DNA of 50,163 nt from Bacteroidota bacterium (GTDB lineage: Bacteria; Bacteroidota; Bacteroidia; Flavobacteriales_D; UBA2798), in the NCBI GenBank assembly GCA_049322335.1, contig JBMORL010000118.1:4316-54478 (forward strand), in the 5' to 3' direction. A program made the position numbers and the translations under genes. This document shows positions 19,124-50,163 of the stretch, piece by piece. Positions within the stretch are counted from its first letter, which is position 1. Each line of letters opens with the position of its first letter. The notes under the pieces are model-generated. The model had not been told where the DNA came from. It was given only the letters and a program-made list of their open reading frames with translations, and searched no databases.

Positions 19124-19651
19124 TCAATTCACCCCTTCTTTAATCTTATTTCTTGCCAGTTCGCTGGCGAAGTCGATAAATACTTTGTAAGCCAGTGTAA
19201 AGGTAAATTTATCTTCCGCGTGTTTATCTATAATATTTCTGCGGCCCAGTGAATTGACAAAAGTTTTCCGGGAATCCTTGTCACGCAACTGTTTGTTGGA
19301 ATTGATCAGGTCGGTATAGTTGGAATTCTCAAAATATTTATCCACGCGCTCCTGGTCCCACTCCGAATACTGGATCTCTTCAATAAAGTTTCTTCCATCG
19401 CGGTCGAGTTCGTAGCTGAGAATAGCAAAGAAAATACAAATGTCGCGCGACAGTGTTTCGTTACTTTCACCCGAAAGCAAAAAACAAAAATCATTGGTCA
19501 TCCGCAATTCATAGTCGAATGACATTTTAAAGAATTCGGTGTAAAATTCACCGTTTTCCCTTATAACCTGGTAAAGCGGTTCGGAAGGAAGGATGAATTT
19601 TCCATCCAGCAATTCCTTTACTACCTGTTTATGCGATTTCGGGTAATCCAT
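19124..19651 (-). CDS. Third gene of the SMC-like ATPase operon: a 175-aa acidic helical protein, size-compatible with a kite-type (MukE/MksE/JetB-like) subunit or an ABC-3C C-terminal component.
   Basis: It overlaps the upstream gene by 23 nt (19629-19651), so it is translationally coupled. No enzymatic motif. The assignment rests on operon context and size alone. Confidence 0.6.
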   Translation of the reverse strand: MDYPKSHKQVVKELLDGKFILPSEPLYQVIRENGEFYTEFFKMSFDYELRMTNDFCFLLSGESNETLSRDICIFFAILSYELDRDGRNFIEEIQYSEWDQERVDKYFENSNYTDLINSNKQLRDKDSRKTFVNSLGRRNIIDKHAEDKFTFTLAYKVFIDFASELARNKIKEGVN

Positions 19652-20837
19652 GTTTGCTTATTTTAACTTTGGGAACGCTTAAAATGGCGTCCTGCATTTT
19701 TATTTGGGTATGTTTCTTTTCGGGATCGGCTTCCAGTACCATGTCGTCTTCAAAAAGAAGAGAAACCATGGAGAAGAATTTTTCCTGGTCTACATCAGAA
19801 AAATCACGGTTGGCGGTATCGCTGCACCATCCGAAAAAGTCTTCAATAGGCAGCTTACTTTCCATTCTCGTTTTATACAATTCCCGGTTGAAAATCCACT
19901 TTTCCTGGAAAGTGATTTCTTCGCTGAGTAATACAGGTGTATCATCGAGGAATTGCTCCACATATTCTTTGGCGGTGAGATAAAAATTGCGTGAGTAAGC
20001 GCGTTCGAGTGTAGTTTTGAAAATGCGCGGCACCCTGGTTTGATACGGCTTGCGCAAAAATTCAATCCATCCCGAAAGAATAAGTGATTCAGTTTTGATA
20101 CGTTCAATAAGTGGCAATAATTCGTTGGTGAGAATTTTAGATTGTTTCAGTAAATCATCATTCGACTGTACCAAAAACCCATACAGTTTTTCAAATTGCT
20201 GGCGTGCAATTTCATCGGGAAAATCAAGGCGTTTGATATTTACATAATACGCCACCTCGTGTAATTGATTGGTAATGGAAGCCTGCTGGTTCACATCCAG
20301 GATTTCATTCAGCGGAATAATGTAATGTTCAATCCATCCCGAGGCACGGTGCACTTTTTCGCGGTAATCGATTTTTTCGATGTTGGCTTTCAGTGCGCGG
20401 GTTTCGGAAAGAAGTTTTGCCGTATTTTTCTCAATAGAGTCCACAAAATTTCGCACTTCCGAAAGAATATCTTCAATACGTTTAATGAGAATTTCCCTGT
20501 CGCCATTGATCCCTTCCTTAATTTTTCTAAAAAGAGCAAGAATAGAAAATCCGTATTTTTCGATTGTTTCGGGAAGTACGGGTTTAAATTCGTTGGAGAT
20601 AAACTCGATCAGCTGGAAAAAAACGGGACGAATTTCAAAATCGTCATTTACGTTTCTCACGATTTTAAACTCCAGCAGTTTGTCTTCCATATCGTGGCCG
20701 TATTTTTTTACAATGGCACGAAATTGCTGGTTGCGTAAAAATCCTTTCTCCATCTGCTCGCTAAAAAGCTCCTGCAGCATGTCGAAGTGATTCCACACGA
20801 AGTATAAAATAGTACGGGGTTCTGCTTTTACTAACAT
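19629..20837 (-). CDS. Second gene of the SMC-like ATPase operon: a 402-aa helical protein, size-compatible with a kleisin-like (MukF/MksF/JetA-like) subunit or an ABC-3C middle component.
   Basis: Its start codon at 20835-20837 directly abuts the ATPase stop at 20839-20841. No catalytic motif. The assignment rests on context. Confidence 0.6.
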   Translation of the reverse strand: MLVKAEPRTILYFVWNHFDMLQELFSEQMEKGFLRNQQFRAIVKKYGHDMEDKLLEFKIVRNVNDDFEIRPVFFQLIEFISNEFKPVLPETIEKYGFSILALFRKIKEGINGDREILIKRIEDILSEVRNFVDSIEKNTAKLLSETRALKANIEKIDYREKVHRASGWIEHYIIPLNEILDVNQQASITNQLHEVAYYVNIKRLDFPDEIARQQFEKLYGFLVQSNDDLLKQSKILTNELLPLIERIKTESLILSGWIEFLRKPYQTRVPRIFKTTLERAYSRNFYLTAKEYVEQFLDDTPVLLSEEITFQEKWIFNRELYKTRMESKLPIEDFFGWCSDTANRDFSDVDQEKFFSMVSLLFEDDMVLEADPEKKHTQIKMQDAILSVPKVKISKHGLPEIA

Positions 20838-20838
20838 A

Positions 20839-23490
20839 TTATGCTTCGGCTATGGGTTCGCTGTAAATGGCATTTAATCTTTCGTTGATATTGATCTTTC
20901 CTTTGCTTGGATAGATGAAGTAGTATTTGCTGAATCCCGGAACAGGATCGGGCGCAGCAAAAATGGGAATGAAATTATGCTCGCGGCAGAATTTCACCAG
21001 CTCGGGGCGATTGTGTTTGTCGATAGTAGCTACCTCGTCAATGAACAAAGTAATCCTGTTGTCTACATCAGTAACCGCCAACCGGTTGATGATTGACATG
21101 ATAATTACTAAACGGATCATTCTGTCAGTTCCATCCGATTCTACCTGGTTCGCAAGATCCACTTTCTTTAACATTCCTTTCAGCATCAGGTGAAGTTCGA
21201 TATCAAACAATTCATCGAAATAAACTTTTTTGGAATTGTCGAGGTATTGGTTGAGAATTTTAAGATTCTCCGTCTGATCGAATTCCAGCATCAGCTGTCC
21301 GTTGATTTCCTGGATTTCTGAAATGGCTTTAATTTCTCCGAGTACGCGTTTGTTATCCAGCAATTCAATCTGCAGTGATTCGATATCCGAAATCCGTGTT
21401 CCCGCGAGTTTCGAGTTGAATTTGGTATAAATAAATTGTTTGAATTCTTCGTAACGTTTCAGCAAATTGAAAGCCGGGTTAGCAAACTGTGTGGAAATAC
21501 TTGCCAAAAGCCCATCGATACTTTTTTCCTTGTCATTCAAACAGGCAATTTCTTCTTCGAAATAGCGAATGAATTCTTCTTCATCGGCAATAGTGCTTTT
21601 TAAAATGTGGCGCAGGTTGTCGAATGCTTTGTCTTTTTGTGATTTCAGGTCGGCCCGGTCGGCATAATGCGCTTTCATTTTGTTGTAAATAAGATCAAGG
21701 TTCTCATTATTTTCACAGGGAATGGGCGGCAATCCGAGGAAATCAACTTCCTGTTTTCTTTCACGGAGAAGTGTTATGCGTTCTTCTGTTTTTTTACGGT
21801 CATCACGGATAGCAGCGAGCATGTGTTCCTTGGTCATGATCTCCTGCATGGTGGATTTTAATTCGCGCTCCAGCTCGTCTTTTTCTTCACGCAGCTTCTC
21901 TACTTCGAGGCGGAAAGAGCTGAGTTCTTTTTCTACCTGGGGTTTTGTTTTTAATTTTTTGATTTTTTCTTTTATCTCATCAATGTTTTCACGGATCTGC
22001 GAAAGCTGAAGGTGAACATTTTCAGAATCTTTAACTGTATTCAGCAGTTTTTCGAATTGATCGCGCTCGCGTTTCAGCTCAGTCAGTTCTTCATTGATTT
22101 CATCTACTGATTTAAACTCTTTCAGAGAAATACCTTCCACGTCAATTTCACCGTCAAAAATTTTCAGTTTACGGGTGGCGCGTTTTACTTTTTCAAGCAC
22201 TTTTCCCGAGGGAAGAGATGTTACTCTTTCAGAAAGTACCGTGTTGAGTAATTTTCTTGTATCGGCATCATCCGAGATTTTATGAATGAGCAGGTCATTG
22301 TAGTTACGGGCCTGGTTTTCTTTTTCACTTATGGCTGCACTCAATACATCAATTCTTGCGCGGATATGGTTTCCGGTGTAGCGCTGGCTTTCTACCTGTG
22401 TAATCTGTGATTCGATCTCCTTACGGTTTTGTTCCAGGTTATCGAGCGATTCAGTGAGGAATTCCAGGTTTTCGTAGGAGTTGATTTCATCCAGTTCCAG
22501 TCGCTTGTCGTCAACATAACGTGTGCGATTGATAATATCCGATTCCTTTTGTCCGATTCTGCGGTTCAGATCCTGCTCTTTGGGACGAAGGAATTCTCCG
22601 ATCTCATTTACCAGTTCAGAAATTTCTTTTGCTTTGGTATGAACTTTTTCTTCCAGTTCGGGGAGAGTGGTTTTGTATGATTCTTCAAATGCAAAAACCA
22701 GCTCACTGAGAATTCTTGATTTGGATTCGTATTTGTTTACGATTTCGCGGAAATCGAGGAAATCATCTTTTACCGAACGAATATTTTTTATTTCGTCATT
22801 GAGGCGCAGAAGGTCGATGATGTCTTTTTTGTTTTTCTGGGAGAAATTAAGCACTTCATTTTCGCGGTTATCAGCAATGATGAGTGCATCTTTAAGTGTT
22901 TTGTTGGTGATGAGTTTGGAATTGATCAGGTAGCGGTACACTTTCGAAAAGTTATTGCTTAATCCGTCAGATTTCACGTTTTCCTCCAGCCAAACGGCAG
23001 CATTGTTGTCGCGGCCACGCTGGTAAACAAAACTAAACACTTCCGATTTGCTGTTGAATTTATCCAGCGGCAATCCTTCCTGTTCGAGGCGCTCCTGCAC
23101 TTCTTCAAATTTCAGCAACCGTTGCTGGGAACCATCTTCGCGGAAGAAAAAATCTTCGCGGAATTCACTGGGAAAAGTATAATATTCGAGTTCGCCTTCA
23201 GTATCACGTTTGATAAGCACGCAATAACTGGAGCTTTTAAAAATTTCGAAAACGATATAACTCTGGTTGGGTGTCGGGAAATAGTGGTGAACCGTTTCCT
23301 TGTCGCCTTTTCTTTGTCCGGAGAACGACATTTTGTTTCCATCGATGATGAACAAAAAGTTGAGCGCATAGATGAGCGTACTTTTTCCGATGTTGTTGGG
23401 TCCTACGAGCTGAAGCGAGTCGCAGTCATCCACGCGAACGATGGCTTTTCCGTATACACGCGAGTTGAGAACAGCAATTTTTCTAAGCAT
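20839..23490 (-). CDS. SMC-like ABC-type ATPase with a split head and a long central coiled coil (883 aa). This is the lead gene of the three-gene operon.
   Basis: N-terminal Walker A LVGPNNIGKST. About 550 aa of E/K/L-rich heptad sequence in the middle. At the C-terminus, signature-like ESDGTDRM, Walker B plus D-loop ITLFIDEVATID, and an H-loop region REHNF. Confidence 0.8.
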   Translation of the reverse strand: MLRKIAVLNSRVYGKAIVRVDDCDSLQLVGPNNIGKSTLIYALNFLFIIDGNKMSFSGQRKGDKETVHHYFPTPNQSYIVFEIFKSSSYCVLIKRDTEGELEYYTFPSEFREDFFFREDGSQQRLLKFEEVQERLEQEGLPLDKFNSKSEVFSFVYQRGRDNNAAVWLEENVKSDGLSNNFSKVYRYLINSKLITNKTLKDALIIADNRENEVLNFSQKNKKDIIDLLRLNDEIKNIRSVKDDFLDFREIVNKYESKSRILSELVFAFEESYKTTLPELEEKVHTKAKEISELVNEIGEFLRPKEQDLNRRIGQKESDIINRTRYVDDKRLELDEINSYENLEFLTESLDNLEQNRKEIESQITQVESQRYTGNHIRARIDVLSAAISEKENQARNYNDLLIHKISDDADTRKLLNTVLSERVTSLPSGKVLEKVKRATRKLKIFDGEIDVEGISLKEFKSVDEINEELTELKRERDQFEKLLNTVKDSENVHLQLSQIRENIDEIKEKIKKLKTKPQVEKELSSFRLEVEKLREEKDELERELKSTMQEIMTKEHMLAAIRDDRKKTEERITLLRERKQEVDFLGLPPIPCENNENLDLIYNKMKAHYADRADLKSQKDKAFDNLRHILKSTIADEEEFIRYFEEEIACLNDKEKSIDGLLASISTQFANPAFNLLKRYEEFKQFIYTKFNSKLAGTRISDIESLQIELLDNKRVLGEIKAISEIQEINGQLMLEFDQTENLKILNQYLDNSKKVYFDELFDIELHLMLKGMLKKVDLANQVESDGTDRMIRLVIIMSIINRLAVTDVDNRITLFIDEVATIDKHNRPELVKFCREHNFIPIFAAPDPVPGFSKYYFIYPSKGKININERLNAIYSEPIAEA

Positions 23491-34221: not shown

Positions 34222-35739
34222 ATGCCGTTCAACTCCATTTTTTCGTGGCTGATAAAAAAGCGCATTCACCAGATAGAACTTTTTATGAAGTACCCGGTGG
34301 AAGTGCAAACCGAACATTTTCTAAAACTGGTATCGGCAGCGGCAGAAACAGAATGGGGAAAAAAACACGGATATTCTTCCGTTAAAAACTATTCTGAATT
34401 CAAAAACCGTGTTCCCCTGCAGGATTATGAACAGCTAAAACCGTATGTGGACCGGTTGATGAAAGGTGAACAAAACCTGTTATGGCCAACGGATGTAAAA
34501 TGGTTTGCCAAATCATCGGGCACCACCAGCGACAAAAGCAAATTCATTCCTGTTACCCTTGAAGCACTGGAAGAATGCCATTATAAAGGCGGAAAAGACC
34601 TGTTGTGTTTGTATTATCACAATCACCCCAACCGGAAATTATACAAGGGCAAGCACCTGATTGTGGGAGGAAGCGCACAAATCAATTACCTGAGTAACGA
34701 TTCGTATTTCGGAGACCTGTCAGCCATTATCATCAAAAATCTTCCGTGGTGGGCCGAGTTCAGAAGAACACCCAGCATCGACATCGCCCTGATGCAGAAC
34801 TGGGAAGAGAAAATAGAAAAAATGGCCAGCTCTACTATTCACGAAGATGTATACATTATTGCAGGTGTTCCTTCATGGACGTATGTTTTACTGAAACGCA
34901 TTCTTGAAATTACCGGCAAAGACAATATTGCTGATGTATGGCCGCGGCTGGAATTGTATATGCACGGAGGAGTAAGCTTTACGCCTTACCGCCAGCAGTT
35001 CAAGGACATCATCCGCAAACCCGACATGAATTACGTGGAAACCTATAATGCTTCGGAAGGTTTTTTTGGCATACAGGATACTTCTGATAAAAACGAATTG
35101 CTGCTGATGCTCGACTATGGAATTTTTTATGAATTCATTCCTATGGAAAAATTTTCAGCGGGAGCGGATGCTGCCATAGACCTTTCGCAGGTGGAAACAG
35201 GAAAAAATTATGCACTCGTCATCTCCACCAATGCCGGATTATGGAGATATGTAGTGGGCGACACCATTGAATTTACTTCCGTATCCCCCTATCGTTTCCG
35301 TATCACCGGCCGCACCAAACATTTTATCAATGCTTTTGGCGAAGAACTGATTGTTGACAATGCCGAAAAAGCCATGGCTATTGCCTGCGAACGAACCGGT
35401 GCCGCAGTAAGAGAATATACTGTTGCACCCGTTTATATGAAAGAAGATGAGCCCGGCACCCACGAATGGGTAATTGAGTTTGAAAAAGAGCCCGGTGATC
35501 CCGGATTTTTTACCGAAGTACTCGACAATGCCTTAAAATCACTTAATTCGGATTATGAAGCCAAGCGATCGAACAATCTGAATATGCGTTTTCCCGTTAT
35601 TCATAAAGCGGTAACTGGCACGTTTTATGCGTGGTTAAGAGAAAAAGGGAAACTGGGAGGGCAACATAAAATTCCCCGGTTGAGTAACGACAGAAAACTG
35701 ATGGAAGAAATTCTGAAAATCAACGCTTCTCTGAAATGA
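34222..35739 (+). CDS. GH3 (auxin-responsive promoter) family acyl-adenylate-forming enzyme.
   Basis: Length 505 aa. The N-terminal region and the adenylation-type motif FAKSSGTTSDKSKFIPVT (an SSGTT P-loop-like motif of the ANL/GH3 superfamily). Later YNASEGFFG. Confidence 0.75.
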   Translation: MPFNSIFSWLIKKRIHQIELFMKYPVEVQTEHFLKLVSAAAETEWGKKHGYSSVKNYSEFKNRVPLQDYEQLKPYVDRLMKGEQNLLWPTDVKWFAKSSGTTSDKSKFIPVTLEALEECHYKGGKDLLCLYYHNHPNRKLYKGKHLIVGGSAQINYLSNDSYFGDLSAIIIKNLPWWAEFRRTPSIDIALMQNWEEKIEKMASSTIHEDVYIIAGVPSWTYVLLKRILEITGKDNIADVWPRLELYMHGGVSFTPYRQQFKDIIRKPDMNYVETYNASEGFFGIQDTSDKNELLLMLDYGIFYEFIPMEKFSAGADAAIDLSQVETGKNYALVISTNAGLWRYVVGDTIEFTSVSPYRFRITGRTKHFINAFGEELIVDNAEKAMAIACERTGAAVREYTVAPVYMKEDEPGTHEWVIEFEKEPGDPGFFTEVLDNALKSLNSDYEAKRSNNLNMRFPVIHKAVTGTFYAWLREKGKLGGQHKIPRLSNDRKLMEEILKINASLK

Positions 35740-36569
35740 AAAAAATAATTTTTCTGCTTTCACTGCTCATCAGCATTTCTGTGAATGCCCAGGATTCTCT
35801 TGTTTCTTTCCAATCTGTTTTTAGCATCAAAGGCCCCTGTTCTCATTTCACTACCGATAACCTGGGCAATATCTATACTGTTCACAAAGACCGTATCACC
35901 AAATACTCACCGCAGGGAGATTCACTTTGCAGCCAGAGCTTTAAATGGATGGGAGAAATCACTTCGATAGATGCCACCAATGCTCTGAGGATTGTGGCAT
36001 TCAGCCGCGACCTTAACCGGTTGATGATCCTTGACAATACGTTGAGTGTGCAGGGAGAAGTGATTAAACTGGAAGACCTCGGATTACAATTCACCAGCCT
36101 CGTTTGCCAGTCGCCCAACAACAATAACCTGTGGGTTTACAATATGGAAGAATTCCGTTTATTACGGCTCAACAAAGACTTTACCGTAGCCAACAATTCG
36201 GGAAATCTTACGCAGGTATTGGGAATCAGCATCAATCCTGTATTTATAGCAGAATACAACAATTACCTGTATGTAAGTGATCCTGATGTGGGAATACTGG
36301 TATTTGACATGTTTGCCGGGTATGTGAAGACGCTTCCGGTAAAAGAAAAAAATTATTTCCAGGTAGTGAATAATAAGATTTATTCTTTACACAATGGGAT
36401 GAAATATGATAAGCTAAACTGGTATGATGTGACCGATCATTCTCAGGGTTCATATGAACTTGATTATTGGATGGGGAGCCAATTCAGAATTGAGAACAGC
36501 CGGTTGTATGTCAAAATGGAAGGAGATGGCCCGATTGATGTTTTTGATATTGTTACCGGCAAAAAATAA
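35736..36569 (+). CDS. Hypothetical secreted protein, translationally coupled to the GH3 gene.
   Basis: Signal peptide MKKIIFLLSLLISISVNAQ. The start overlaps the GH3 stop (ATGA). No recognisable catalytic motif; the composition is beta-rich. Confidence 0.5.
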   Translation: MKKIIFLLSLLISISVNAQDSLVSFQSVFSIKGPCSHFTTDNLGNIYTVHKDRITKYSPQGDSLCSQSFKWMGEITSIDATNALRIVAFSRDLNRLMILDNTLSVQGEVIKLEDLGLQFTSLVCQSPNNNNLWVYNMEEFRLLRLNKDFTVANNSGNLTQVLGISINPVFIAEYNNYLYVSDPDVGILVFDMFAGYVKTLPVKEKNYFQVVNNKIYSLHNGMKYDKLNWYDVTDHSQGSYELDYWMGSQFRIENSRLYVKMEGDGPIDVFDIVTGKK

Positions 36570-36727: not shown

Positions 36728-37354
36728 ATGCACATTGCCATTGCGGGAAACATCGGATCGGGAAAAACTACTTTAACCACCATGCTGGCCAACCACTACA
36801 AATGGGAAGCCCACTACGAAGATGTTTCGCAGAATCCCTACATCAACGATTTTTATGAAGATATGCAGCGCTGGTCGTTCAACCTGCAGATTTACTTCCT
36901 GAACAACCGCTTTATGCAGATACAGGAAATCCGCAAAGCGAAAAAGAATTTTGTACAGGACCGTACCATTTATGAAGATGCCTACATCTTTGCCCCCAAC
37001 CTGCACGCAATGGGACTGATGACTACCCGCGATTTTGAAAATTATTTTTCTCTTTTCAACCTCATGGAGTCTTTCATCTCTCCGCCCGACCTTTTGATCT
37101 ATCTCCGTTCCAGTGTTCCCACTCTTGTTAATCATATTCAATCACGCGGCCGCGAATACGAAGAAAGTATCCGTCTCGATTATTTAAAACGCCTCAACGA
37201 ACGCTACGAAGCATTTATCTCCACCTACGATCGCGGCAAACTGCTGATCATTGACGTTGACAATAACAAATTCCCCACCAGCAAAGAAGACCTCGGAAAT
37301 ATCATCCGCAGCATCGATGCAGAAATGCATGGTTTGTTTAAAGTGGCGAAGTAG
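36728..37354 (+). CDS. Deoxynucleoside kinase (dNK family).
   Basis: P-loop MHIAIAGNIGSGKTT at the N-terminus, the ERS-like motif region and LID arginines (RGREYEE). Start moved to the ATG at 36728, since dNKs begin at the P-loop. Confidence 0.85.
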   Translation: MHIAIAGNIGSGKTTLTTMLANHYKWEAHYEDVSQNPYINDFYEDMQRWSFNLQIYFLNNRFMQIQEIRKAKKNFVQDRTIYEDAYIFAPNLHAMGLMTTRDFENYFSLFNLMESFISPPDLLIYLRSSVPTLVNHIQSRGREYEESIRLDYLKRLNERYEAFISTYDRGKLLIIDVDNNKFPTSKEDLGNIIRSIDAEMHGLFKVAK

Positions 37355-37524
37355 GGGGAGATTTGAGATATCAGACGGGAAGATTTTAGATGTTAGACTT
37401 ATAGGTGAAATTTAACCTGGTTTTGTTTTAAAACACTGCCCGATCCTAACCATACTACGTGCGTCATTGCAAGCCGGCCTGATGTAAACAAAGGAGTTTT
37501 CGACCGCGGCAAGCTGCCAGTGCG
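37355..37524. repeat. Copy 1 of a ~165-170-bp direct repeat: GGGGAGATTTGAGATATCAGACGGGAAGATTTTAGATGTTAGAC...GGCAAGCTGCCAGTGCG.
   Basis: Near-identical to the copy at 40010-40176, with one substitution and one 2-bp indel. It begins right after the dNK stop codon. Confidence 0.85.
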
Positions 37525-37613
37525 TTGGAATAATGAAACAAAATAAATCTGATTTCCCTTTCAATTCATTTATTAACCCATGTTAATTTGTAGAAAACTC
37601 CTGACATCTACAT

Positions 37614-38180
37614 TTGAGCATGAAAAAAACAATACTCCTTATTATTTTATGGGTTGGCGTTATCGTATTTTCATCGTGCAGGAAAGCAGCCGGACTGGAA
37701 ACCAGGAAAGAATTAGAAAAATTATTTGAAAAACTGGAAGGAAACTGGAAGCTGGAAGGTTATCAAAGGATTAATTATTATTTGCTGGGAAATGATACCA
37801 CTGTTTACCCTCCGTCAAGATCATATGAATATATTCAAAATGATACTTTATACGCTGGTGGTGAAAAGGGATTTCTTGATATACATTTGGAAATAAAGAA
37901 TTATAAAAAATTTGAATTTGAAACCAACTTTTACAAAGAGAAAGATATATTTTTACCTTTTCCATATATCAATGAATCGTCTGCAACATACAGTACTAAT
38001 TGGGAAAGCATGGGAAAATCTCACTATATTTCTCTTGACGCCATTTACACTATTAGCCGGTTGGATGAAAATCATTTATCCTTATACTACAGCAAATCAG
38101 AAAGTCATGGAAATGGTGGCCTTTGGGGGGGAGTATCGGAAAGTTCCTCTGTTACCGTCCGATATGATTTTGTAAGGTAA
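37614..38180 (+). CDS. Hypothetical lipoprotein, inside the direct-repeat-flanked cassette.
   Basis: Signal plus lipobox (IVFSSCRK). 188 aa. No recognisable domain. Confidence 0.5.
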   Translation: MSMKKTILLIILWVGVIVFSSCRKAAGLETRKELEKLFEKLEGNWKLEGYQRINYYLLGNDTTVYPPSRSYEYIQNDTLYAGGEKGFLDIHLEIKNYKKFEFETNFYKEKDIFLPFPYINESSATYSTNWESMGKSHYISLDAIYTISRLDENHLSLYYSKSESHGNGGLWGGVSESSSVTVRYDFVR

Positions 38181-38256
38181 AAAGTACATTTTCTGTTTTT
38201 TTTGCAGATGATTTCATGATAAAAAACATTGCTATATATTAACCAAAAACGAACCC

Positions 38257-39963
38257 ATGCTACATTACCAGCCACACTACTACGACCTGTTTTATTTTCT
38301 CGCTGTAATTCTTCCTGTTTGGTATTTACTATGGGCTGGGAATAAAAAGGGAATTCCGGTTGTTCCATGGTCGCTTGTACTGATCACCACTATCCTATTT
38401 ATTATACTCGGATCTAAAATATTTACCATATCCCCGAATCAATGGCGCGTTTTTTTTGAGGAAGGAGTTCTTCCTGCAAACACAGGCAGAACAGTTTTGG
38501 GCGCATTGGCCGGATGCCTTTTTTCGCTTTACGTATGTAAAAAATATTTCCAATTCAGTTATCGTGTTTTTGATCTTATTGCACCGGTTATTCCATTATC
38601 AATGGCTATTCAACGGATCGGTTGTTTTTTACATGGCTGCTGTTTTGGCACTTCAACTGATGCTTTTTGGGCAGTGCAATATGGATTTAACACCCCTGCG
38701 CATATTCACCACAGCAATGAAGGCTGGATTTCAATTAGTGATGTTGCTTCTTTATCCGTACATCCTAACCAATTATATCAGTCATTTTCGTGTATTATCA
38801 TTTTTTTCCTTGCTGTATTTTATCTCAAACACAAACTCCATCGTCCCGGAAACTTATTATTGTCGGTAGTTGCATTGTATCTTGTCTCCCGTTTTTTCAC
38901 TGAATTTTTCAGGGCGGATATCACCAACGGAGCAGCGGGTGAAACCTGGCTGGAATTAAAATATATTCAATGGATTTTGTTGTTTTTTGTTTTTACGCTA
39001 TTTTATATTATCCGAAAACGCGAAAAAATAAAATCAGGCAGACATCCTATTAATGCTTTATTCACCGAATCAGTAAAAAAACACACTTTCATTTACTACC
39101 TGTTGTTTATTACCCTTCTTTTTTCATGGAGCTGGCTTCCATCAACAGAAAAACTTGTTATCTCTACGGCCATACTCTCTTCTTTTCTATTCTATTTAAA
39201 ACATTTTTCAAATTCAATTTCTTTATCAGGATTCAAATGGACATTTCTTTCCTTATTCCCGGTTTTACTTGTGTTTTTTTCTTTCAACACAACACAGCCG
39301 GATACTATCCCGCAGAAAAAAAATTATTTCTCAGCAGGAGCTGGTGCATACACAGGAGATTACACCTATATAGTTAGAGGCTGCAATTCCAGCACCTATT
39401 ATCATTCTAAATACAACATTTATGGCCTTGGAGTTTCATACAATCATTTTGATAAAGCAGGGAACAAATGGATCTTTACAGGAAGTTTTGCAAAAGGAAT
39501 TCAAACAGAAGCCAATACAAAAAGACATTTTACAACCGTTTATAATCTTATCGGAGGAGGATTACAGGCGAGATATGAAGGAAAAAAATGGGGTTATGGG
39601 CTTGGGGGATATTATGGCCGGTTCGTTCTGGGAATAGATGCCGTACCCGGCCTGCCTTTTGTTGAAGTAAGATATGGCAACGTAAAAAAATTATTTTTAG
39701 CAAGCGGATATGGTAATCAGTTTCCCGGAGTATCAGGGCTTGAAAACTTTTATATCGAAACCGGAACATCTCTTTTTAATAAAAAACATGACTTTAAATT
39801 CGGGTTTACTTTAGCGGGATTTTATCTCAGGGCTAAACTTGACCTTCTTAAATCCAAATTATCAGCAGAACCATACATGTATGCCGGAAATTTTGATTCA
39901 GATCCTTATAACGGATATACCACTTCACGATTCGGACTGGCACTTTGGTGGAATTTCAGGTAA
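38257..39963 (+). CDS. Fusion protein: an N-terminal prolipoprotein diacylglyceryl transferase (Lgt)-like polytopic membrane domain plus a ~300-aa C-terminal beta-rich domain of unknown function (possibly beta-barrel-like).
   Basis: About 7 TM helices with the Lgt-family signature region SMAIQRIGCFLHGCCFGT (compare Lgt GR[IL]G[NC]FxNGE/CC.G). The C-terminal part is rich in G/Y/F/N alternation (GYGLGGYYGRFVLGIDAV...), ending ALWWNFR. Confidence 0.55.
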   Translation: MLHYQPHYYDLFYFLAVILPVWYLLWAGNKKGIPVVPWSLVLITTILFIILGSKIFTISPNQWRVFFEEGVLPANTGRTVLGALAGCLFSLYVCKKYFQFSYRVFDLIAPVIPLSMAIQRIGCFLHGCCFGTSTDAFWAVQYGFNTPAHIHHSNEGWISISDVASLSVHPNQLYQSFSCIIIFFLAVFYLKHKLHRPGNLLLSVVALYLVSRFFTEFFRADITNGAAGETWLELKYIQWILLFFVFTLFYIIRKREKIKSGRHPINALFTESVKKHTFIYYLLFITLLFSWSWLPSTEKLVISTAILSSFLFYLKHFSNSISLSGFKWTFLSLFPVLLVFFSFNTTQPDTIPQKKNYFSAGAGAYTGDYTYIVRGCNSSTYYHSKYNIYGLGVSYNHFDKAGNKWIFTGSFAKGIQTEANTKRHFTTVYNLIGGGLQARYEGKKWGYGLGGYYGRFVLGIDAVPGLPFVEVRYGNVKKLFLASGYGNQFPGVSGLENFYIETGTSLFNKKHDFKFGFTLAGFYLRAKLDLLKSKLSAEPYMYAGNFDSDPYNGYTTSRFGLALWWNFR

Positions 39964-40009
39964 ACAGGAGAAACGATTTGAGATTTGACCCTTCGACCAG
40001 CTCAGGGTG

Positions 40010-40176
40010 GGGATTTGAGATATCAGACGGGAAGATTTTAGATGTTAGACTTATAGGTGAAATTTAACCTGGTTTTGTTTTAAAACACTGCCCGATACTA
40101 ACCATACTACGTGCGTCATTGCAAGCCGGCCTGATGTAAACAAAGGAGTTTTCGACCGCGGCAAGCTGCCAGTGCG
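40010..40176. repeat. Copy 2 of the ~165-bp direct repeat.
   Basis: Matches 37355-37524 (GGGGATTTGAGATATCAGACGGGAAG...CAGTGCG). It begins ~45 bp after the stop of the Lgt-like fusion gene. Confidence 0.85.
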
Positions 40177-40424
40177 GGAGACCTGAATCCGTGCAAAGGC
40201 TGGATACATTTTTCAAACAACTTTTTCTTTAAACTCTCGGTTGCATAGGAAAAAAGTAAAGGAAATTTTTCTATTTCGCGGCAATCCAATTTACTGATCC
40301 ATTCATTTTTATTTTCCGGCCTGGTGTTTTCTGAAGATGCGCTATTTTTTTCGGAGGGGTTGCAGCTAAATAGTAATAAAAATAAAAGGCTATTACTTAA
40401 AATTGATCTATAAACAATTTTCAT
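40116..40424 (-). CDS. Possible small lipoprotein. Its last ~20 codons lie inside direct-repeat copy 2.
   Basis: An internal ATG gives MKIVYRSILSNSLLFLLLFSCNP (lipobox). The gene is uncertain because its 3' end is supplied by the repeat. Confidence 0.3.
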   Translation of the reverse strand: MKIVYRSILSNSLLFLLLFSCNPSEKNSASSENTRPENKNEWISKLDCREIEKFPLLFSYATESLKKKLFEKCIQPLHGFRSPALAACRGRKLLCLHQAGLQ

Positions 40425-40485
40425 AAATACATTTTTTAGTTGAAGCGCCATCTTTTCAAGATTTGAGTTCAATCAAAACATAAAG

Positions 40486-40680
40486 TTATTTTTTACCATT
40501 TTTATTTATTGAAAACAAAACTAAACCAGTAACCATAAAAAACAAACTTAATATCAATAACTGAAACGAAAAATCTATCGGGCCACCGAAACCATTACCT
40601 CCATCTGTATTTCGAAACAGGAGAAATATCCCGATGATGAATAAAATTTTGCCCACGTTTTTTAAATGAAAAATATTCAT
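40486..40680 (-). CDS. Hypothetical small membrane protein (64 aa, two TM helices).
   Basis: Hydrophobic helices ILFIIGIFLLF and LLILSLFFMVTGLVLF. No homology inferable. Confidence 0.3.
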   Translation of the reverse strand: MNIFHLKNVGKILFIIGIFLLFRNTDGGNGFGGPIDFSFQLLILSLFFMVTGLVLFSINKNGKK

Positions 40681-40698
40681 AAATAATATTTAATCAAT

Positions 40699-40890
40699 TC
40701 ATAAATGGATCAAATCACCCGGGCTGGATTCCTTTATTTTTTTGATTATCTCTTCTCCATGCTCAAAAGACCGGCATGGAATTATAATTTTATTGGGCGG
40801 GTTTTTGATATCGTTCATCACTGCCAGGTTTCCTGCCATCATTTTTTCAATTTTCAATGTTCCGATGATTTTGGGGCGAATGATATGCAT
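40699..40890 (-). CDS. Hypothetical small protein (63 aa).
   Basis: Only an ORF in an otherwise empty interval. No motif. Confidence 0.25.
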   Translation of the reverse strand: MHIIRPKIIGTLKIEKMMAGNLAVMNDIKNPPNKIIIPCRSFEHGEEIIKKIKESSPGDLIHL

Positions 40891-40991
40891 GCTTAATTAT
40901 TCTATTCTACAGTTAATTTTGCGTTATAGAAACACTATTGAAGAAAACATATTTATTACAAGCCATCTCAAACCAATCCGTTTTACCCCCG

Positions 40992-43238: not shown

Positions 43239-43504
43239 GTTTTTAAACTCCTATAAATTGAACAATGTCTATAGCGATGTTATTGGGATCTTTGATTACA
43301 AAGTGTCGTTCACACCACACCACCATAATTGCGATAAATTTTCAGTCTGTCTATGTCTATTATGGTTGTCATAACGTTTGGCAGCTACCCGAAGTTGGCG
43401 TTTTTGGAACACTAAACTGTCTATAACCACAAATGCAAATTTAATGAATTAATGTTTATATGAGCACTTCCTCGCAATTTTGGGCAGGTGTTGTTAGTGG
43501 CAGA

Positions 43505-44557
43505 TTATTCTTCATTTAAAAGCACATAACTTATTTTGTCAATATTTTCATAAAGCTGTCCAACTCCGGAAAGATTACTTAAAACTATAATTCCCTTTTG
43601 TCTGTTTTGAGAAAACTTAAGACTTGATGTATATCCTGTTGTCGCTCCATCATGAAAGTAAATAGTGTCATTTTCTTTATAGTAAATGTCCCATGCTAAT
43701 CCAATGTCCACCTTGTCGTTAATTTTATAGGTTGCTTGTTTTGCCAATAGTATGTCTTGGTCAATTGATGATTTCGTGAAGAAGTTGTAGTCTAAAAAAT
43801 TTAGGATGTCTGAAGCGCTGGATAAAATAGCTCCAGCACTTTCATATACTCCATAGTCGGGATTTTGCAGCATATTGCCAGTGCTGTCTCTGCCCGAAAC
43901 AATTAATGAAGCGTCAATGTTTTTTTTGTCGCTACTTGTTTGCAACATTTTAAGTGGCAAGAGAATATTTTCCTTTAGAAGAACCGAATATGTCTTTTTT
44001 GTTGATTTACAAAGAATGTCACCTAAGATTGCAAAACCAAGATTAGAATATCCGAATTTACTACCTGTCTCAAACTCTAATTTCAAACCTTTCTTTAAAT
44101 ATGTGCTCAATTGTTTTTTGTTTAGAGACTTTTCCCTGGAAGAATTTGGCGCATTTTTAGGTAACCCAGAAGTGTGATTGCAAAGAGATAAAATAGTAAT
44201 ATTTTTCGATTGATTATTGTCATACTTTATTTTAAACGAATAATACTTTTGCAAGTCGTCTGAAAGTGAAACCACTCCTTTATTAGAAAGGTCAGCTATT
44301 AAAATCGCTGTAAATACTTTTGTTATTGAACCTATTTCAAATAACTTATTTTGATTTGACGTAATTACTAAAGAATCGTTCTCCTTTTTTAGTCCATAAA
44401 AAATTCTTTGGGAATTTTCGATAATTCCTATTGATAGTTCAGTTCCGTTAGGAAAGTATTTAGCGAGTTGTTTAATTTTATTGTACGTGTCTTGCTTTAT
44501 TGTCTGCCCAAATGTCGAAATGGTTGTGAGTAATAAGAAGGGCACTATTTTTTTCAT
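43505..44557 (-). CDS. Secreted serine hydrolase of the beta-lactamase / PBP (class C-like) family.
   Basis: Signal peptide. The SxxK motif sits in FEIGSITKVFTA. Downstream Y-x-N-like and GxT-type motifs plausible (YSNLGFAILG; HDGATTGYTS). Confidence 0.65.
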   Translation of the reverse strand: MKKIVPFLLLTTISTFGQTIKQDTYNKIKQLAKYFPNGTELSIGIIENSQRIFYGLKKENDSLVITSNQNKLFEIGSITKVFTAILIADLSNKGVVSLSDDLQKYYSFKIKYDNNQSKNITILSLCNHTSGLPKNAPNSSREKSLNKKQLSTYLKKGLKLEFETGSKFGYSNLGFAILGDILCKSTKKTYSVLLKENILLPLKMLQTSSDKKNIDASLIVSGRDSTGNMLQNPDYGVYESAGAILSSASDILNFLDYNFFTKSSIDQDILLAKQATYKINDKVDIGLAWDIYYKENDTIYFHDGATTGYTSSLKFSQNRQKGIIVLSNLSGVGQLYENIDKISYVLLNEE

Positions 44558-44607
44558 GGAGTTTCTTATTACTTTTCTGTCGGTCTATAATTTGCCCCTA
44601 ACTTATT

Positions 44608-46446: not shown

Positions 46447-49400
46447 GATGGGCTTTCTTCTGAAAACCGGTTGTATTTTACTACTGTTGCTGTGGCAGCC
46501 CTGCTTTGTTATTTCTCAAAAAAACAAAGTGTACTATTCCCTCAGCGAAGCCCTGAAAAATCCCGAACAGGTTTATCACCTTGAACTACGCAAAAAAAGC
46601 CTCTCCTCACTGCCTCCGGATATCGGTAAACTGGTGAACCTTGAAACACTTATTCTCGAAAAAAATTATTTAAAAGCGCTGCCTCCCGAAATCGGTCAAC
46701 TGAAAAACCTGAAAATACTTGACGCTGACCAGAACAGCCTCACCGCCATTCCTGCAGAAATAGGAAATCTTATACTATTGGAAGAACTGGACCTTGACCA
46801 GAATTATATCCGTGCTCTGCCCTCTTCCATCGGAAATCTTGTGAACCTCAAAAGCCTCGATATTCACAGCAACAATCTCACATCACTTCCCCGCGAGATC
46901 GGCAACCTTACAAAACTTACCGAAATTATTTTTACTGCCAACCGGATCGACAGCCTGCCGGTTGAATTTCAAAACCTGGAAAATATCACCACGCTGGTGA
47001 TTGATAAAGTAAAATATATTCCTGCTATCGGAAAAATGCAGAAATTAACCAGCCTGAGTATTTATGAAGGAGGAATGAAAACACTTCCGGAAGACCTGGG
47101 CGAACTGAAGAACCTGAAAACATTGAAAATATACAATACACAAGTCAAAAAACTTCCCGATGGTTTTGGAAAATTAACCCAACTTACTGAACTGATTCTT
47201 TCCTATAACCAACTGGATTCACTGCCTGCTGATATTGGTAATCTTGTGTTGCTTACGCGCCTTGATGCAAAACATAACCGGCTTACAACATTACCCGGTT
47301 CCATTGGTAAACTCAAACAGCTTCAATACCTCGGATTAAAAGGAAACCTGTTAACCACATTACCGGATGAAATTTGCGGATTAACCGAATTGAACGATCT
47401 TGAAGTTTCGGAAAACAAACTCACTTCATTACCGCTGGATTTTTACCGGCTGTCGAAAATAAAGTATCTTTCCCTTTCCAACAATCAATTTACCAGGCTA
47501 CCAGCCGAAATTGGAAAATGTACTCAACTTACCTATCTGAATGTTTCGGATAATAAACTTACCTCGCTTCCGGAAGAGATCGGCCAGCTGGTGAATGTTA
47601 CTTCGCTTCATTTAAAAAACAATCAGCTTAAAGAACTTCCTGCAGGAACCGGAAAAATGAAATCGCTGAAAATTCTGCATGCAGAATACAATTCGCTCAC
47701 CACCATTCCCTCTTCCATGAAAGATCTTTCCTCACTTACGGAGTTGCATATTCATCACAATAAAATCACGACACTTCCTGCAGAAACAGGTTTTATACCA
47801 TCACTCGCTTTACTGGATGCTTCACACAACCAGCTAACCACACTACCTGCAGAAATCGGCAAGCTTAATTTACTGATAAGAATTTATCTTCAAAATAATA
47901 AATTAACCACTCTTCCTGTTGAAATTGGAACACTGACTTCCTTAAACGAATTGCATCTGGACAGCAATAAGATCACTTCCTTACCTGCCACCATCGGGCA
48001 AATGAAAGAATTAAATACGCTGGAAATAAATTACAATTTGCTACCGGGATTACCTGCAGAACTGGGAAGAATGCCACAGTTGAGTTCGCTTTCTGTTATG
48101 GGAAACCCGTTCTCCACCACTCTTGATCCGCTGGCGGGTGCAAAAGAATTGTCATTTCTGCTGATGTCGGAAAAACATTTAAAACTACTTCCGCTGGAAA
48201 TGATCAATCATCCTCAGCTTATTGCTATTGAACTGGGAAATGAAAAAACAATAGAACTAAAATATCTTACACAAATTCTGATTGAAAATAGTTCATTCCC
48301 GCCCGAAAAGAAAAAGGAAATGCGCAGGCAGTTATGGGCGGATAAGATCATCCGGGAAATTATTTCCCACTCTTCTGTTCTTTACTGGGATGAACCGGGA
48401 ACGAAAAGCTTTGCCCTGTTATACGGGTTGAAATCCGCCCATTCCACCGAACAACTGACAGCGTTGTGCAATGATACTTCTTCATTGTACCTGAGGCTTT
48501 ATGCTTTCAGGGCGCTGGAAGAGCAAAACTATCCCGGAATTTATACTGTAATACGTGAACACATGTTTGACGATGATTTTGTGATGGAAGATAAATACAC
48601 CGATGACGATATAACAGCCGGTGATATTTATACTTCATCACGACTGCTCACTGCTGCTCAAAAAAAGGAGACTGACAGCTTACTTTTGTATACCGACAAC
48701 AACCTGTTACGTACAAAACATCTTCTCCGGGAACTGAAACCCGAAGAACGTCACCATCAGCGAATTTATGAACTTGCGGAAACATCAATGGAAGCTTTGC
48801 ATCTGCTGGCAGAATACGGAGATGAAAAAGATAGCGTAAGGTTAAGAAATTGTATGATTAAAAAACATTATGATCCGGATGATATCACATCCATTATTGA
48901 AAAACATCATTTTTCTTACTTAAAACCCGTATTGGATTCGCTCATCGTAAAAAAAAGCAACTATTATTCAGGATTTGCCGGTGCGATGGCATCCTACCGG
49001 GATGAATATGCACTGAATTATTTTAAAAATCAATTTGAGCTGAACGAAGGATCCGGTTGGAAAAGACAGATTACAGATTTTGAAGGAATGTCTGAATACC
49101 CCTGCCCGTTATACGATAAATTACTTTTTGAACTGGCGGAAAAATATCCAGCGTATATTACCAACAAACTTTTCGACTACCTGAAAACGCGTGATATATA
49201 CCGGAGTACAGAACTAGCAAAATCAACCCTTTCAAAGCTACATAAAGAAATTCCGAAAGAGGTTACAGAAAATTATATCCGGCACCTCGCCATTTATGAT
49301 TTTAATGCGCTGGGTGATACTATTGCCGGCATTTTTTCTAAGGCAGAAAAAGAACAATATGTCAGCATTTCTTTTGACGGAATTCATTATAGGGTGGAAC

Positions 49401-50163
49401 CAGAAAAAGATTATCATCATAGTTATTCTGATTTCACCGACTATAACCGAAAATACACCAATGTTTCCTTTTTTGTTGATCAGGCCCATTGTTTTAAAAG
49501 CGAAAAAACGGCAATAGCCATGCTTTCATTCATGAAAAACATTGGTGCAAACCTGAAAGAGATCACTTCCTGTATTTTATCCTATAACGAACCTGAATGG
49601 AACCGCCAGCTTATCGCGATTCTCGCAGAAAAAAGAAACCTGTATTATAGTATTGATGACGAAATAAAAGAATTGCTGGAAGAATACGGCTGGCTGGAAG
49701 AAATGAAAAAACTCACCAAAATATATCCCGTCAATCCAACCGGAAGCTGGGATATTATTTCTTACACTACCGAAAAAGGCGAAACCAAAACCGCGCCCTA
49801 TTTTGCAAAACTTGAACTAACGGCAAGCTCCTACAGGCACCTGCATTGTTCCGACTGGCATATTGGTAAATACACAACAGAAAAACCGAATGCCATACAA
49901 TTTGATTCGGTAGCTGAATATGAATATGTAAACAAAAATACTCCCGGGCTTGCTCTTTCGGCACCGCAACCCCGTTTTAGTTATTGCACCGGGATAAAAG
50001 ACATGTCTGTCGTTACGGATTACGATCACTATCTCACTGAAATTTTATCATCGGTAACCCGTTATGAATTAAAAGACAGTACGCTTACTTTGTATGGAGA
50101 AGGAAAAAGTGTAGTAAAATTAAAACTGAATAACAGCTGGTATCCCGACTGGAGAAAACCGGT
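46447..50163 (+). CDS. Large secreted leucine-rich-repeat protein. About 24 consecutive 23-residue LRRs, then an uncharacterised C-terminal region of more than 600 aa. It is 3'-truncated by the window end and missing from the supplied ORF track because no stop lies in the window.
   Basis: The ATG at 46447 is followed by an open frame to the last base (I read the codons and saw no in-frame stop). Signal peptide MGFLLKTGCILLLLLWQPCFVISQ. Repeats of L..LP.EIG.L.NL..L.L..N.L..LP run from ~46600 to ~48230. After that the sequence is non-repetitive. Confidence 0.8.

What the first reader, a model, noticed from the sequence alone, without database searches (positions are those of the whole stretch)
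37355..40176. Two near-identical ~165-bp direct repeats bracket a two-gene cassette (lipoprotein + Lgt-like fusion).
Copy 1 (37355-37524) and copy 2 (40010-40176) differ by one substitution (CGATCCTAACC versus CGATACTAACC) and one 2-bp indel near the 5' end. Each starts immediately after a stop codon of a plus-strand gene. Between them lie exactly two genes. A partial extra repeat fragment (GATTTGAGATTTGAC) precedes copy 2. Such long, almost identical direct repeats 2.6 kb apart imply recent duplication, recombination, or insertion or excision of the intervening cassette. Or they are copies of a dispersed intergenic element (MITE or REP-like, or a small RNA gene or terminator module) in the genome. 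No integrase, transposase or tRNA is nearby, so the mechanism is unclear.
Basis: seen in the sequence. Interest (0 to 1): 0.6.

Follow-up and report, generated by a model that had tools for sequence, protein, structure and literature searches.

The report
Two-copy local repeat flanking two genes
A 165-base non-coding stretch occurs twice in the same orientation around two envelope genes in an uncultured flavobacterium; it looks like an ordinary local duplication kept similar by recombination, not a mobile element or an RNA gene.

Summary
The repeat is real. R1 (37360-37524) and R2 (40012-40176) are 165 nt and differ at one base (37445 C / 40097 A). No indel is needed. They bracket a lipoprotein gene and an Lgt-like gene fused to a beta-barrel.

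Independent short-read assemblies from three accession blocks reproduce the junctions, so it is not an assembly artefact.

The cassette and R1 are present in every related strain recovered (98.5-99% identity). No empty site was seen. R1 and R2 already differ at 2 of 63 sites in another strain, so the duplication predates strain divergence. The near-identity in this window is best explained by gene conversion.

R lacks:
- terminal inverted repeats or target duplications
- significant RNA or DNA folding
- Rfam, tRNA, promoter or terminator hits
- a nearby integrase or transposase
- protein homologues

It was not found in the GTDB genome, JGI metagenome or IMG/VR contig scans (exact 20-23-mers), by blastn in the plasmid and phage collections, or in 80 related dNK loci. 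Contigs read through its borders, which argues against a high-copy family.

Verdict: a lineage-restricted, two-copy segmental duplication at a synteny breakpoint. It is ordinary and of low interest. The rest of the genome could not be searched.

The parts
37360..37524 (+). R1, the left copy of the 165-nt direct repeat. It starts 5 nt after the dNK stop codon.
   Evidence: Read through in strain contigs L095 and L096.
40012..40176 (+). R2, the right copy of the 165-nt direct repeat. It starts 48 nt after the stop of the Lgt-like gene and has one mismatch to R1 (40097 A versus 37445 C).
   Evidence: Its right 63 nt plus the flank are present in strain contig L004. Its left 30 nt are joined to the cassette in L001 and L095.
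37355..37398 (+). Imperfect 22-nt tandem duplication at the 5' end of R (GGGGAGATTTGAGATATCAGAC / GGGAAGATTTTAGATGTTAGAC). The same feature sits at 40007-40050 in R2.
   Evidence: TRF: period 22, 2.0 copies, 81% matches. Only marginally unusual against shuffles, p about 0.04.
37403..37435 (.). Two short palindromes inside R: AGGTGAAATTTAACCT (imperfect, 16 nt) and TGTTTTAAAACA (perfect, 12 nt). They could be protein-binding sites, but the statistics are marginal.
   Evidence: Shuffle frequencies are 0.06 and 0.04.
36728..37354 (+). Deoxynucleoside kinase gene, the last gene of the conserved GH3 / 277-aa / dNK block. It forms the left border of the variable region.
   Evidence: Pfam PF01712, E=1.6e-54. 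Synteny is conserved in most of 80 GTDB loci.
37525..37619 (+). Unique 95-nt spacer between R1 and the lipoprotein gene. It is identical in all strains, so it is more conserved than R. It contains TACATTTG just before the ATG, a possible Bacteroidota -7 box identified by eye.
   Evidence: 0 differences in L095 and L096. Sequence.
37620..38180 (+). 186-aa predicted lipoprotein (signal ...VIVFSSC) with no family match.
   Evidence: Intact in strain variants P0027 and P0028.
38257..39963 (+). 568-aa Lgt-like protein. It has an N-terminal PF01790 domain (aa 7-247, below the NCBIfam equivalog cut-offs), extra helices, and a C-terminal 12-strand beta-barrel-like domain.
39975..40009 (+). Junction sequence before R2. 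It consists of the partial R-start fragment GATTTGAGATTTGAC, then CCTTCGACCAGCTCAGGGTG, which can form a 5-bp stem.
   Evidence: The 20-mer is unique in the window and absent from all non-strain loci.
40177..40981 (-). Right flank of R2. Positions 40177-40277 are identical in strain L004. Positions 40278-40341 carry 18 differences. Positions 40369-40981 are replaced in L004 by an intact 313-aa gene. Only short ORFs without family hits occur here in the window.

Best explanation
R is a lineage-restricted, two-copy, non-coding segmental duplication (a low-copy direct repeat). It sits at the synteny breakpoint just downstream of dNK in a Crocinitomicaceae-like flavobacterial MAG.

Shown:
- Two 165-nt copies in direct orientation bracket a 2.49 kb unique segment carrying a lipoprotein gene and an Lgt-like/beta-barrel gene.
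- The arrangement dNK-R1-cassette-R2-downstream exists in strains from three sets of sequencing runs.
- R has none of the hallmarks of a transposable, site-specific or structured-RNA element.

Inferred:
- The duplication arose once, before the sampled strains diverged, through a recombination event. One route is tandem duplication of [R + cassette] followed by loss of the second cassette. Another is single-crossover (Campbell-type) integration of a circular DNA carrying one R.
- The two copies have since exchanged sequence by RecA-dependent gene conversion. That explains why they are 99.4% identical in this strain but differ more in another.
- As 165 bp of perfect homology in direct orientation, the pair is a passive substrate for deletion, circular pop-out or amplification of the cassette. 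No such variant was detected.
For: - Identity and copy number in the window.
- Independent k=31 Logan contigs break exactly k-1 = 30 nt inside the repeat, as expected for a two-context repeat. L001 equals 37495-40041. dNK contigs from five runs all end at 37389. L006 starts at 40147.
- L096 reads dNK-R1-lipoprotein-Lgt without a break. L095 carries the whole of R1, the cassette and 30 nt of R2.
- L004 reads from the downstream region into R2 and stops at 40114. That is exactly 30 nt from the A/G site at 40144, which shows that an R1 type (G) and an R2 type (A) coexist in that sample.
- At 37492 and 37521, R1 of L095 and L096 carries G,C. Window R1, window R2 and L004 R2 carry A,T. L095 and L096 are 3.05% apart from each other, while over the whole of each contig L095 is 1.0% and L096 1.5% from the window. 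Two changes on the window branch that both copy R2 are best explained by conversion.
- R diverges 1.8-3.0% between strains, against 0-2.7% in the flanks and 0% in the adjacent spacer, so there is no special constraint on R.
- No TIR or TSD. Fold z-scores are -0.5, +1.3 and +1.0. Rfam, tRNA, promoter and terminator searches were negative.
- No recombinase in the 29 large ORFs scanned against Pfam; a 30th, the partial LRR gene at 46448-50163, was not scanned.
- R is absent from 80 related dNK loci covering 1.4 Mb. Exact 20-23-mer scans found nothing in GTDB genomes, JGI metagenomes or IMG/VR. blastn found nothing in plasmids or phages.
- Nothing to the right of dNK is syntenic in relatives.
Against: - The rest of this MAG could not be searched. 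It is not in the searchable genome collection, so genome-wide copy number is not measured directly.
- The conversion inference rests on two linked sites. It could instead reflect inter-strain recombination, because mosaic divergence is evident in the cassette.
- L095 runs through a point where a fork to R2/downstream is expected. This leaves open a loop-like graph (tandem or circular R-cassette) or assembler pruning.
- The mechanism that created the duplication left no diagnostic scar, so tandem duplication plus deletion cannot be told apart from Campbell-type integration.
- R contains a 22-nt tandem and two short palindromes that might be binding sites.
Confidence: 0.6

Rival explanations
1. 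R is one member of a dispersed intergenic repeat family (MITE, REP or similar) of this genome, and two members happen to flank the cassette.
For: - R is of the right size and non-coding. Only 50 kb of the genome could be inspected.
- Contigs of all five runs break at the left border of R.
- A different genome (L098) has an intergenic element repeated four times in 7.5 kb around a homologous gene.
Against: - All contig breaks are accounted for by the two known copies.
- L095, L096 and L004 read through R borders, which near-identical copies elsewhere would prevent.
- No terminal inverted repeats, target duplications or palindromic structure.
- No copy in 1.4 Mb of related loci or in four public collections.
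- No ORF-derived peptide hits. That search had no positive control.
Confidence: 0.1
2. R is a functional cis-element, such as an operator or promoter region, a 3' UTR, a terminator or an sRNA, present twice because both upstream or downstream genes need it.
For: - Both copies follow plus-strand genes.
- R carries a 22-nt tandem repeat, a 16-nt imperfect palindrome and a 12-nt perfect palindrome.
- R1 lies upstream of the lipoprotein/Lgt-like pair.
Against: - Each motif is only marginally unusual, p = 0.04-0.06.
- No fold signal on either strand, no terminator or sigma-70 match inside R, and no Rfam hit.
- R2 has no plus-strand gene downstream.
- R changes as fast as or faster than its flanks, while the neighbouring 95-nt spacer is invariant.
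- R is not conserved in any relative.
Confidence: 0.15
3. The cassette is a non-autonomous integrative element, such as an integron-type cassette or a cis-mobilisable element, and R1/R2 are its recombination sites, used by a recombinase encoded elsewhere.
For: - Direct repeats bracket a discrete gene set at a synteny breakpoint.
- The cassette is restricted to this lineage.
- L095 graph oddity.
Against: - No integrase anywhere in the 50 kb.
- R does not fold as an attC-like hairpin (DNA z = +0.99) and has no complementary ends.
- 165 nt of shared identity is much longer than typical att cores (general knowledge).
- No empty site among strains.
- A 58% homologue of the Lgt-like gene lies next to the same OmpA/LRR neighbourhood in L013. 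This suggests long residence rather than recent arrival.
Confidence: 0.05
4. The duplication is an assembly artefact: a collapsed or looped repeat mis-resolved in the MAG.
For: - In a k=31 graph, A->R, B->R, R->B and R->C fit either a linear A-R-B-R-C arrangement or A-R-C plus a circle.
- The full B-R2-C path is seen only in the MAG itself.
Against: - L096 links dNK to the cassette through an R1 with private SNPs.
- L004 links R2-type sequence to the downstream flank while an R1 type coexists.
- L001 and L095 link the cassette end to the R start.
- With single-copy flanks, only A-R1-B-R2-C satisfies all of these.
Confidence: 0.03

Closest known systems
Low-copy direct repeats / segmental duplications that flank amplifiable or deletable units (RecA-dependent unequal recombination; for example amplifiable DNA units bounded by direct repeats in Streptomyces; general knowledge)
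   Same: Two long, near-identical, non-coding direct repeats bracket a few genes. There is no element-encoded recombinase. There are signs of copy homogenisation.
   Different: Neither amplification nor deletion of the unit was observed here. The repeats are short (165 nt), and the event that created them is unknown.
Campbell-type (single-crossover) integration products
   Same: The product structure is homology-insert-homology with the homology in direct orientation, exactly as seen.
   Different: No circular donor, plasmid or phage relative of R was found, nor any empty site.
MITEs and REP/BIME-type dispersed intergenic repeats
   Same: Size range, and a non-coding intergenic location after stop codons.
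   Different: No terminal inverted repeats, no target-site duplication, no palindromic fold, and only two copies detectable.
Integron gene cassettes with attC sites / clusters of attC sites lacking an integrase
   Same: A gene(s)-repeat-gene(s)-repeat layout in one orientation, with highly similar repeats.
   Different: R has no hairpin-forming imperfect palindrome and no complementary ends. No integrase is nearby. The cassette holds two genes with their own spacer. Only two sites exist.
The repeat-bracketed homologue locus L098 (JGI metagenome 3300041075)
   Same: A gene of the same Lgt-like/barrel family is bracketed by roughly 200-nt direct repeats 2.3 kb apart (89% identical). Such pairs were otherwise absent from 1.37 Mb of control loci.
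   Different: The L098 repeat is unrelated in sequence to R. It starts inside the 3' end of the gene, so it includes a gene relic. It recurs four times in neighbouring intergenic regions.

Membership tests
Segmental duplication / low-copy direct repeat | Two (or few) copies of the same sequence in the same genome region, with high identity beyond chance | tested here: met
   164 of 165 identical, spacing 2652, and only two copies in the window.
Segmental duplication / low-copy direct repeat | Real in the organism, not produced by the assembler | tested here: met
   Junctions are reproduced in Logan contigs of three accession blocks, with SNP-phased links.
Segmental duplication / low-copy direct repeat | No autonomous mobility functions or element termini | tested here: met
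   No recombinase in the window. No TIR or TSD.
Segmental duplication / low-copy direct repeat | Copy number in the whole genome is low | not testable with these tools
   The MAG is not in the searchable genome collection. Only indirect evidence is available, from contigs that read through R borders.
MITE | Terminal inverted repeats | tested here: not met
   No inverted repeat joins the two ends of R; only internal short palindromes were found.
MITE | Target-site duplication flanking each copy | tested here: not met
   The flanks are GGGGA|R|TTGGA and GTGGG|R|GGAGA.
MITE / REP dispersed family | Many copies in unrelated intergenic contexts | tested here: inconclusive
   None in the 50 kb window, in 1.4 Mb of relatives, or in the GTDB, JGI, IMG/VR, plasmid and phage collections. 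The remainder of this genome was not searchable.
REP/BIME | Imperfect palindrome able to form a stable stem-loop | tested here: not met
   RNA and DNA folds are no better than shuffles: z = -0.5, +1.3 and +1.0.
Integron cassette / attC | attC hairpin with complementary R''/R' and L''/L' boxes | tested here: not met
   No complementarity between the ends of R. The single-strand DNA fold is not significant. The dedicated attC covariance model was not available.
Integron cassette / attC | IntI integrase and attI adjacent (complete integron), or an array of several attC sites | tested here: not met
   No integrase domain in the window. Only two repeats.
Integrated element with att sites (prophage, ICE, cis-mobilisable element) | Empty site in close relatives; tRNA or gene 3' end as target; recombinase in the element or genome | tested here: not met
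   No empty site in strain contigs. No tRNA. No recombinase in the window. The rest of the genome is not testable.
Small RNA gene / riboswitch / terminator module | Match to a described RNA family, or a thermodynamically or evolutionarily supported structure; hairpin plus U-tract for a terminator | tested here: not met
   Rfam at gathering and E-value thresholds gave nothing meaningful. Fold z-scores are not significant. No terminator-like site in R. Covariation is not testable because there are only strain-level variants. Expression was not testable.

The most novel reading that the evidence does not exclude
R1 and R2 could be the working parts of a homologous-recombination-based cassette system for envelope genes. 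In this reading, genes of the Lgt-like/beta-barrel family are recurrently bracketed by direct repeats in unrelated Bacteroidota, so that the cassette can loop out, amplify or be exchanged without a dedicated recombinase.

Support:
- The window and L098 both show this bracketing: 2 of 5 loci, against 0 such repeat pairs in 1.37 MB of control loci.
- The loop-like contig topology of L095 would then reflect tandem or circular R-cassette forms.
Probability: 0.06. Interest if true: 0.55.

Novelty: new member of a known kind. Interest (0 to 1): 0.2.

Why it matters
As it stands, this matters little. It is a well-documented example of a short segmental duplication at a synteny breakpoint. It shows that near-identity of repeats need not mean recent insertion, because copies can be homogenised by gene conversion. 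Practically, it explains why short-read assemblies of this lineage break at 37360-37524 and 40012-40176, and it warns against calling the enclosed genes a mobile cassette.

It would matter more in two cases. First, if read-level data showed that the pair drives on/off or copy-number variation of the enclosed genes. Second, if the association between this unusual Lgt-like/outer-membrane-barrel fusion family and flanking repeats proved general.

Tried and rejected
1. Exact-pattern scans with three different R segments returned 0 hits in every collection: genome contigs, metagenome contigs and viral contigs. The source genome itself is therefore not in these collections, and genome-wide copy number stays unmeasured.

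2. I searched the 5.8-billion-protein collection with a concatenate of the 118-aa ORF that runs into R2 and the five longest R-encoded peptides, hoping to catch spurious ORFs called over other R copies. There were no hits. Even the known ORFs were absent, so this is a test without a positive control. It does argue that R is not a fragment of a known protein gene.

3. From memory, I suspected that CCTTCGACCAGCTCAGGGTG, to the left of R2, belongs to a dispersed hairpin motif of Bacteroidota. It is unique in the window and absent from all 96 non-strain loci, so I dropped the idea.

4. I considered that R2 served as the crossover anchor for the strain-specific replacement of the segment to its right. 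This was rejected because L004 is identical to the window for 101 nt beyond R2, and divergence starts only at 40278.

5. An attC or att-site reading was rejected on fold, ends and the absence of a recombinase.

6. PADLOC found no defence-system match for the cassette genes.

7. Looking up the 64-aa ORF to the right of R2, to find a contig reading through R2, returned only the window's own sample.

8. Two IMG/VR loci with Lgt-like genes carry only the stand-alone N-terminal domain and have no flanking repeats.
Full report
**Observation**

The window contains one pair of long direct repeats. The repeat finder gives 37354-37524 and 40006-40176 at 98% identity with spacing 2652. Alignment shows an uninterrupted identical block of 165 nt, R1 = 37360-37524 and R2 = 40012-40176. 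There is one mismatch, at 37445 C versus 40097 A. No indel is required, because the six bases before the block merely match at 4 of 6 positions. blastn-short and nhmmer find no third copy in the 50,163 nt. R1 starts 5 nt after the stop of a deoxynucleoside kinase gene, and R2 starts 48 nt after the stop of the second enclosed gene. The fragment GATTTGAGATTTGAC lies at 39975-39989.

**Surroundings**

The layout from left to right is:
- DUF2797 (minus strand)
- GH3 34222-35739
- a 277-aa protein 35736-36569
- dNK 36728-37354
- R1
- a 95-nt spacer
- a 186-aa lipoprotein 37620-38180
- a 568-aa Lgt-like protein 38257-39963 (PF01790 on aa 7-247 only)
- R2
- about 800 nt with only short ORFs that have no family hits
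- on the minus strand: TfoX_N, M24 peptidase, DUF1579, TfoX_C and beta-lactamase

No tRNA or tmRNA is present. None of the 29 large ORFs scanned against Pfam has an integrase, transposase or recombinase domain; the 30th large ORF, the partial LRR gene at 46448-50163, was not scanned here. The source is an NCBI MAG labelled Bacteroidota bacterium. Its dNK is 79-90% identical to those of Crocinitomicaceae, Fluviicola and other Flavobacteriales MAGs.

**Is it an artefact?**

No. Logan contigs (k = 31) of the same and other runs behave exactly as expected for a repeat with two contexts.
- L001 equals window 37495-40041, which is 30 nt of R1, the cassette and 30 nt of R2.
- dNK contigs of five runs all stop at 37389, 30 nt into R.
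- L006 starts at 40147.
- L096 (SRR28285651, 98.5% identical) reads dNK-R1-lipoprotein-Lgt without a break.
- L095 (SRR25572399, 99.0%) holds the whole of R1, the cassette and 30 nt of R2.
- L004 (SRR25572394) reads from the downstream side into R2 and stops at 40114.

That L004 stop is exactly 30 nt from position 40144. At that site R2 has A, whereas R1 of L095 and L096 has G. So an R1 type and an R2 type coexist in that sample. With single-copy flanks, only dNK-R1-cassette-R2-downstream fits all these links.

**Age and evolution**

Between strains, R1 differs at 3 sites (L095) or 5 sites (L096) out of 165. That is 1.8-3.0%, compared with 0-2.7% in flanking genes and 0% in the adjacent 95-nt spacer. 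R is therefore not under visible constraint.

At 37492 and 37521, R1 of both L095 and L096 carries G and C. Window R1, window R2 and L004 R2 carry A and T. L095 and L096 are further from each other (3.05%) than either is from the window; over the whole of each contig L095 is 1.0% and L096 1.5% from the window. The simplest history is that R1 and R2 were already distinct, and that part of R1 was overwritten from R2 in the window lineage, which is gene conversion. This is an inference from two linked sites. Inter-strain recombination is an alternative, because the cassette shows mosaic divergence, for example 8 differences in 76 nt at 38181-38256 in L095.

Either way, the duplication predates the divergence of strains that differ by 1-3%, and no strain lacking the cassette was found. 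Both cassette genes are intact in all variants, with mixed synonymous and non-synonymous changes.

**What R is not**

- It has no terminal inverted repeats or target duplications.
- RNA folds of either strand and a DNA fold are no better than shuffles: z = -0.5, +1.3 and +1.0.
- Rfam gives nothing at gathering thresholds and only eukaryotic noise at E up to 10.
- No sigma-70-like or terminator-like site lies within R.
- Its longest peptides have no protein homologues (which lacked a positive control).
- blastn finds nothing in plasmids or phages.
- Exact 20-23-mers from three parts of R are absent from GTDB representative genomes, JGI metagenomes and IMG/VR.
- nhmmer finds no R in 80 related dNK loci.

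R does contain an imperfect 22-nt tandem at its 5' end and two short palindromes. Each is only marginally unusual, with p = 0.04-0.06 against shuffles.

**Comparative context**

GH3 / 277-aa / dNK is conserved in nearly all of the 80 GTDB loci. Nothing to the right of dNK in the window occurs within 10 kb downstream of dNK in any of them. In 45 of 70 loci, dNK is followed by a conserved 321-aa gene with a Rossmann-type N-terminus (identified by eye, not scanned). The closest relatives each have something different. The right side of dNK is therefore a synteny breakpoint.

The Lgt-like gene has few relatives: 24 hits, 12 of them full length. The 58% homologue (L013) lies beside an OmpA/PD40 gene that is 90% identical to the window's, together with an LRR gene. 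This suggests that the Lgt-like gene has long been resident in this neighbourhood and did not arrive recently. The 186-aa lipoprotein partner is not conserved next to the homologues.

To the right of R2, strain L004 is identical for 101 nt, then diverges (18 differences in 40278-40341). It carries an intact 313-aa gene where the window has other sequence.

**Mechanism**

Shown: R is a two-copy direct repeat around a fixed gene pair. It lacks the features of mobile, site-specific or RNA elements.

Inferred: a single duplication-generating recombination created the pair. This was either a tandem duplication of R plus cassette followed by loss of the second cassette, or a single-crossover integration of a circle carrying one R. 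Occasional gene conversion has since kept the copies alike. The pair is a passive substrate for RecA-mediated deletion or amplification, but no such product was seen. I give this reading 0.6. The rivals are a dispersed family unseen for lack of the genome (0.1), a functional cis-element (0.15), a non-autonomous site-specific cassette (0.05) and an artefact (0.03).

**Unexplained and noteworthy**

L095 passes through the point where a fork towards R2/downstream is expected. The graph in SRR25572399 therefore looks like a loop: dNK to R to cassette and back to R. This could be pruning by the assembler, or tandem or circular forms. It could not be resolved because the look-ups were exhausted.

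One other locus of the same gene family (L098) is also bracketed by direct repeats: 4905-5102 versus 7177-7372 at 89% identity, starting inside the gene's 3' end. That element recurs four times nearby. No comparable repeat pair exists in 1.37 Mb of control loci. Two of five loci is suggestive but far too few to draw a conclusion.

**Verdict**

The interpretation as a recent insertion/excision cassette or as a dispersed element is not supported. This is an ordinary, lineage-restricted segmental duplication, a new instance of a known kind of feature. Interest 0.2.

Noticed in passing
window 38257-39963 (+): The 568-aa Lgt-like protein has an unusual architecture. It has an N-terminal PF01790 domain that scores below the NCBIfam Lgt equivalog cut-offs. 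In all 12 family members the Lgt signature region reads MAIQRIGCxxxGCCFG, with invariant C123, C128 and C129. Extra helices follow, and then a C-terminal domain of 12 long beta strands (aa 357-568). The model has pLDDT 77, and its best Foldseek PDB matches are outer-membrane barrels (FapF, EspP/AIDA-I autotransporter barrels, OmpG). The protein ends in ...WWNFR. An inner-membrane enzyme fold fused to an outer-membrane-type barrel is odd and may deserve study of its own.
   Followed up: partly
L098 1-7500 (JGI 3300041075, locus of homologue P0010): An intergenic element of about 200-300 nt recurs at 1-508, 3303-3510, 4905-5313 and 7177-7483. It separates one- or two-gene units that encode envelope proteins. 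The copy upstream of the Lgt-like gene is preceded by an 89-nt relic of that gene's 3' end.
   Followed up: partly
window 1-244: A tandem repeat with period 109 nt, 2.2 copies and 92% matches, next to the 3' end of a large SpoIIE/Reg_prop/Y_Y_Y sensor-phosphatase gene on the minus strand (484-3981).
   Followed up: no
window 19124-23490 (-): A three-gene cluster: an MksE-domain protein (19124-19651), a 402-aa protein without a family hit, and an 883-aa AAA/coiled-coil protein. It resembles an MksBEF-type condensin or Wadjet-like module. No fourth (JetD-like) gene was checked.
   Followed up: no
window 40369-40981 and 43317-44598 versus L004 11195-12273 and 3046-8858: Strain-specific replacements occur within otherwise 99% identical DNA. 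Where the window has short ORFs, L004 has an intact 313-aa gene. Where the window has a beta-lactamase-family gene, L004 has six other genes (glyoxalase, SDR, acetolactate decarboxylase, CMD, cNMP-binding, hydrolase). The region between dNK and OmpA is a hotspot of gene-content variation.
   Followed up: partly
L013 1-24 (SRR10211375): The contig carrying the 58% homologue of the Lgt-like gene starts with (GTCATTGG)x3, 227 nt upstream of the gene. This simple octamer repeat at a contig end recalls the GATTTGA-type units at the start of R.
   Followed up: no
L099 4030-4782 (IMG/VR UViG_3300045988_094354): A stand-alone 250-aa Lgt-like protein with the same cysteine-rich motif (GRVGCFISGCCYG) is encoded on a predicted viral contig. 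The cysteine variant of the Lgt fold is therefore not restricted to the barrel fusions.
   Followed up: no
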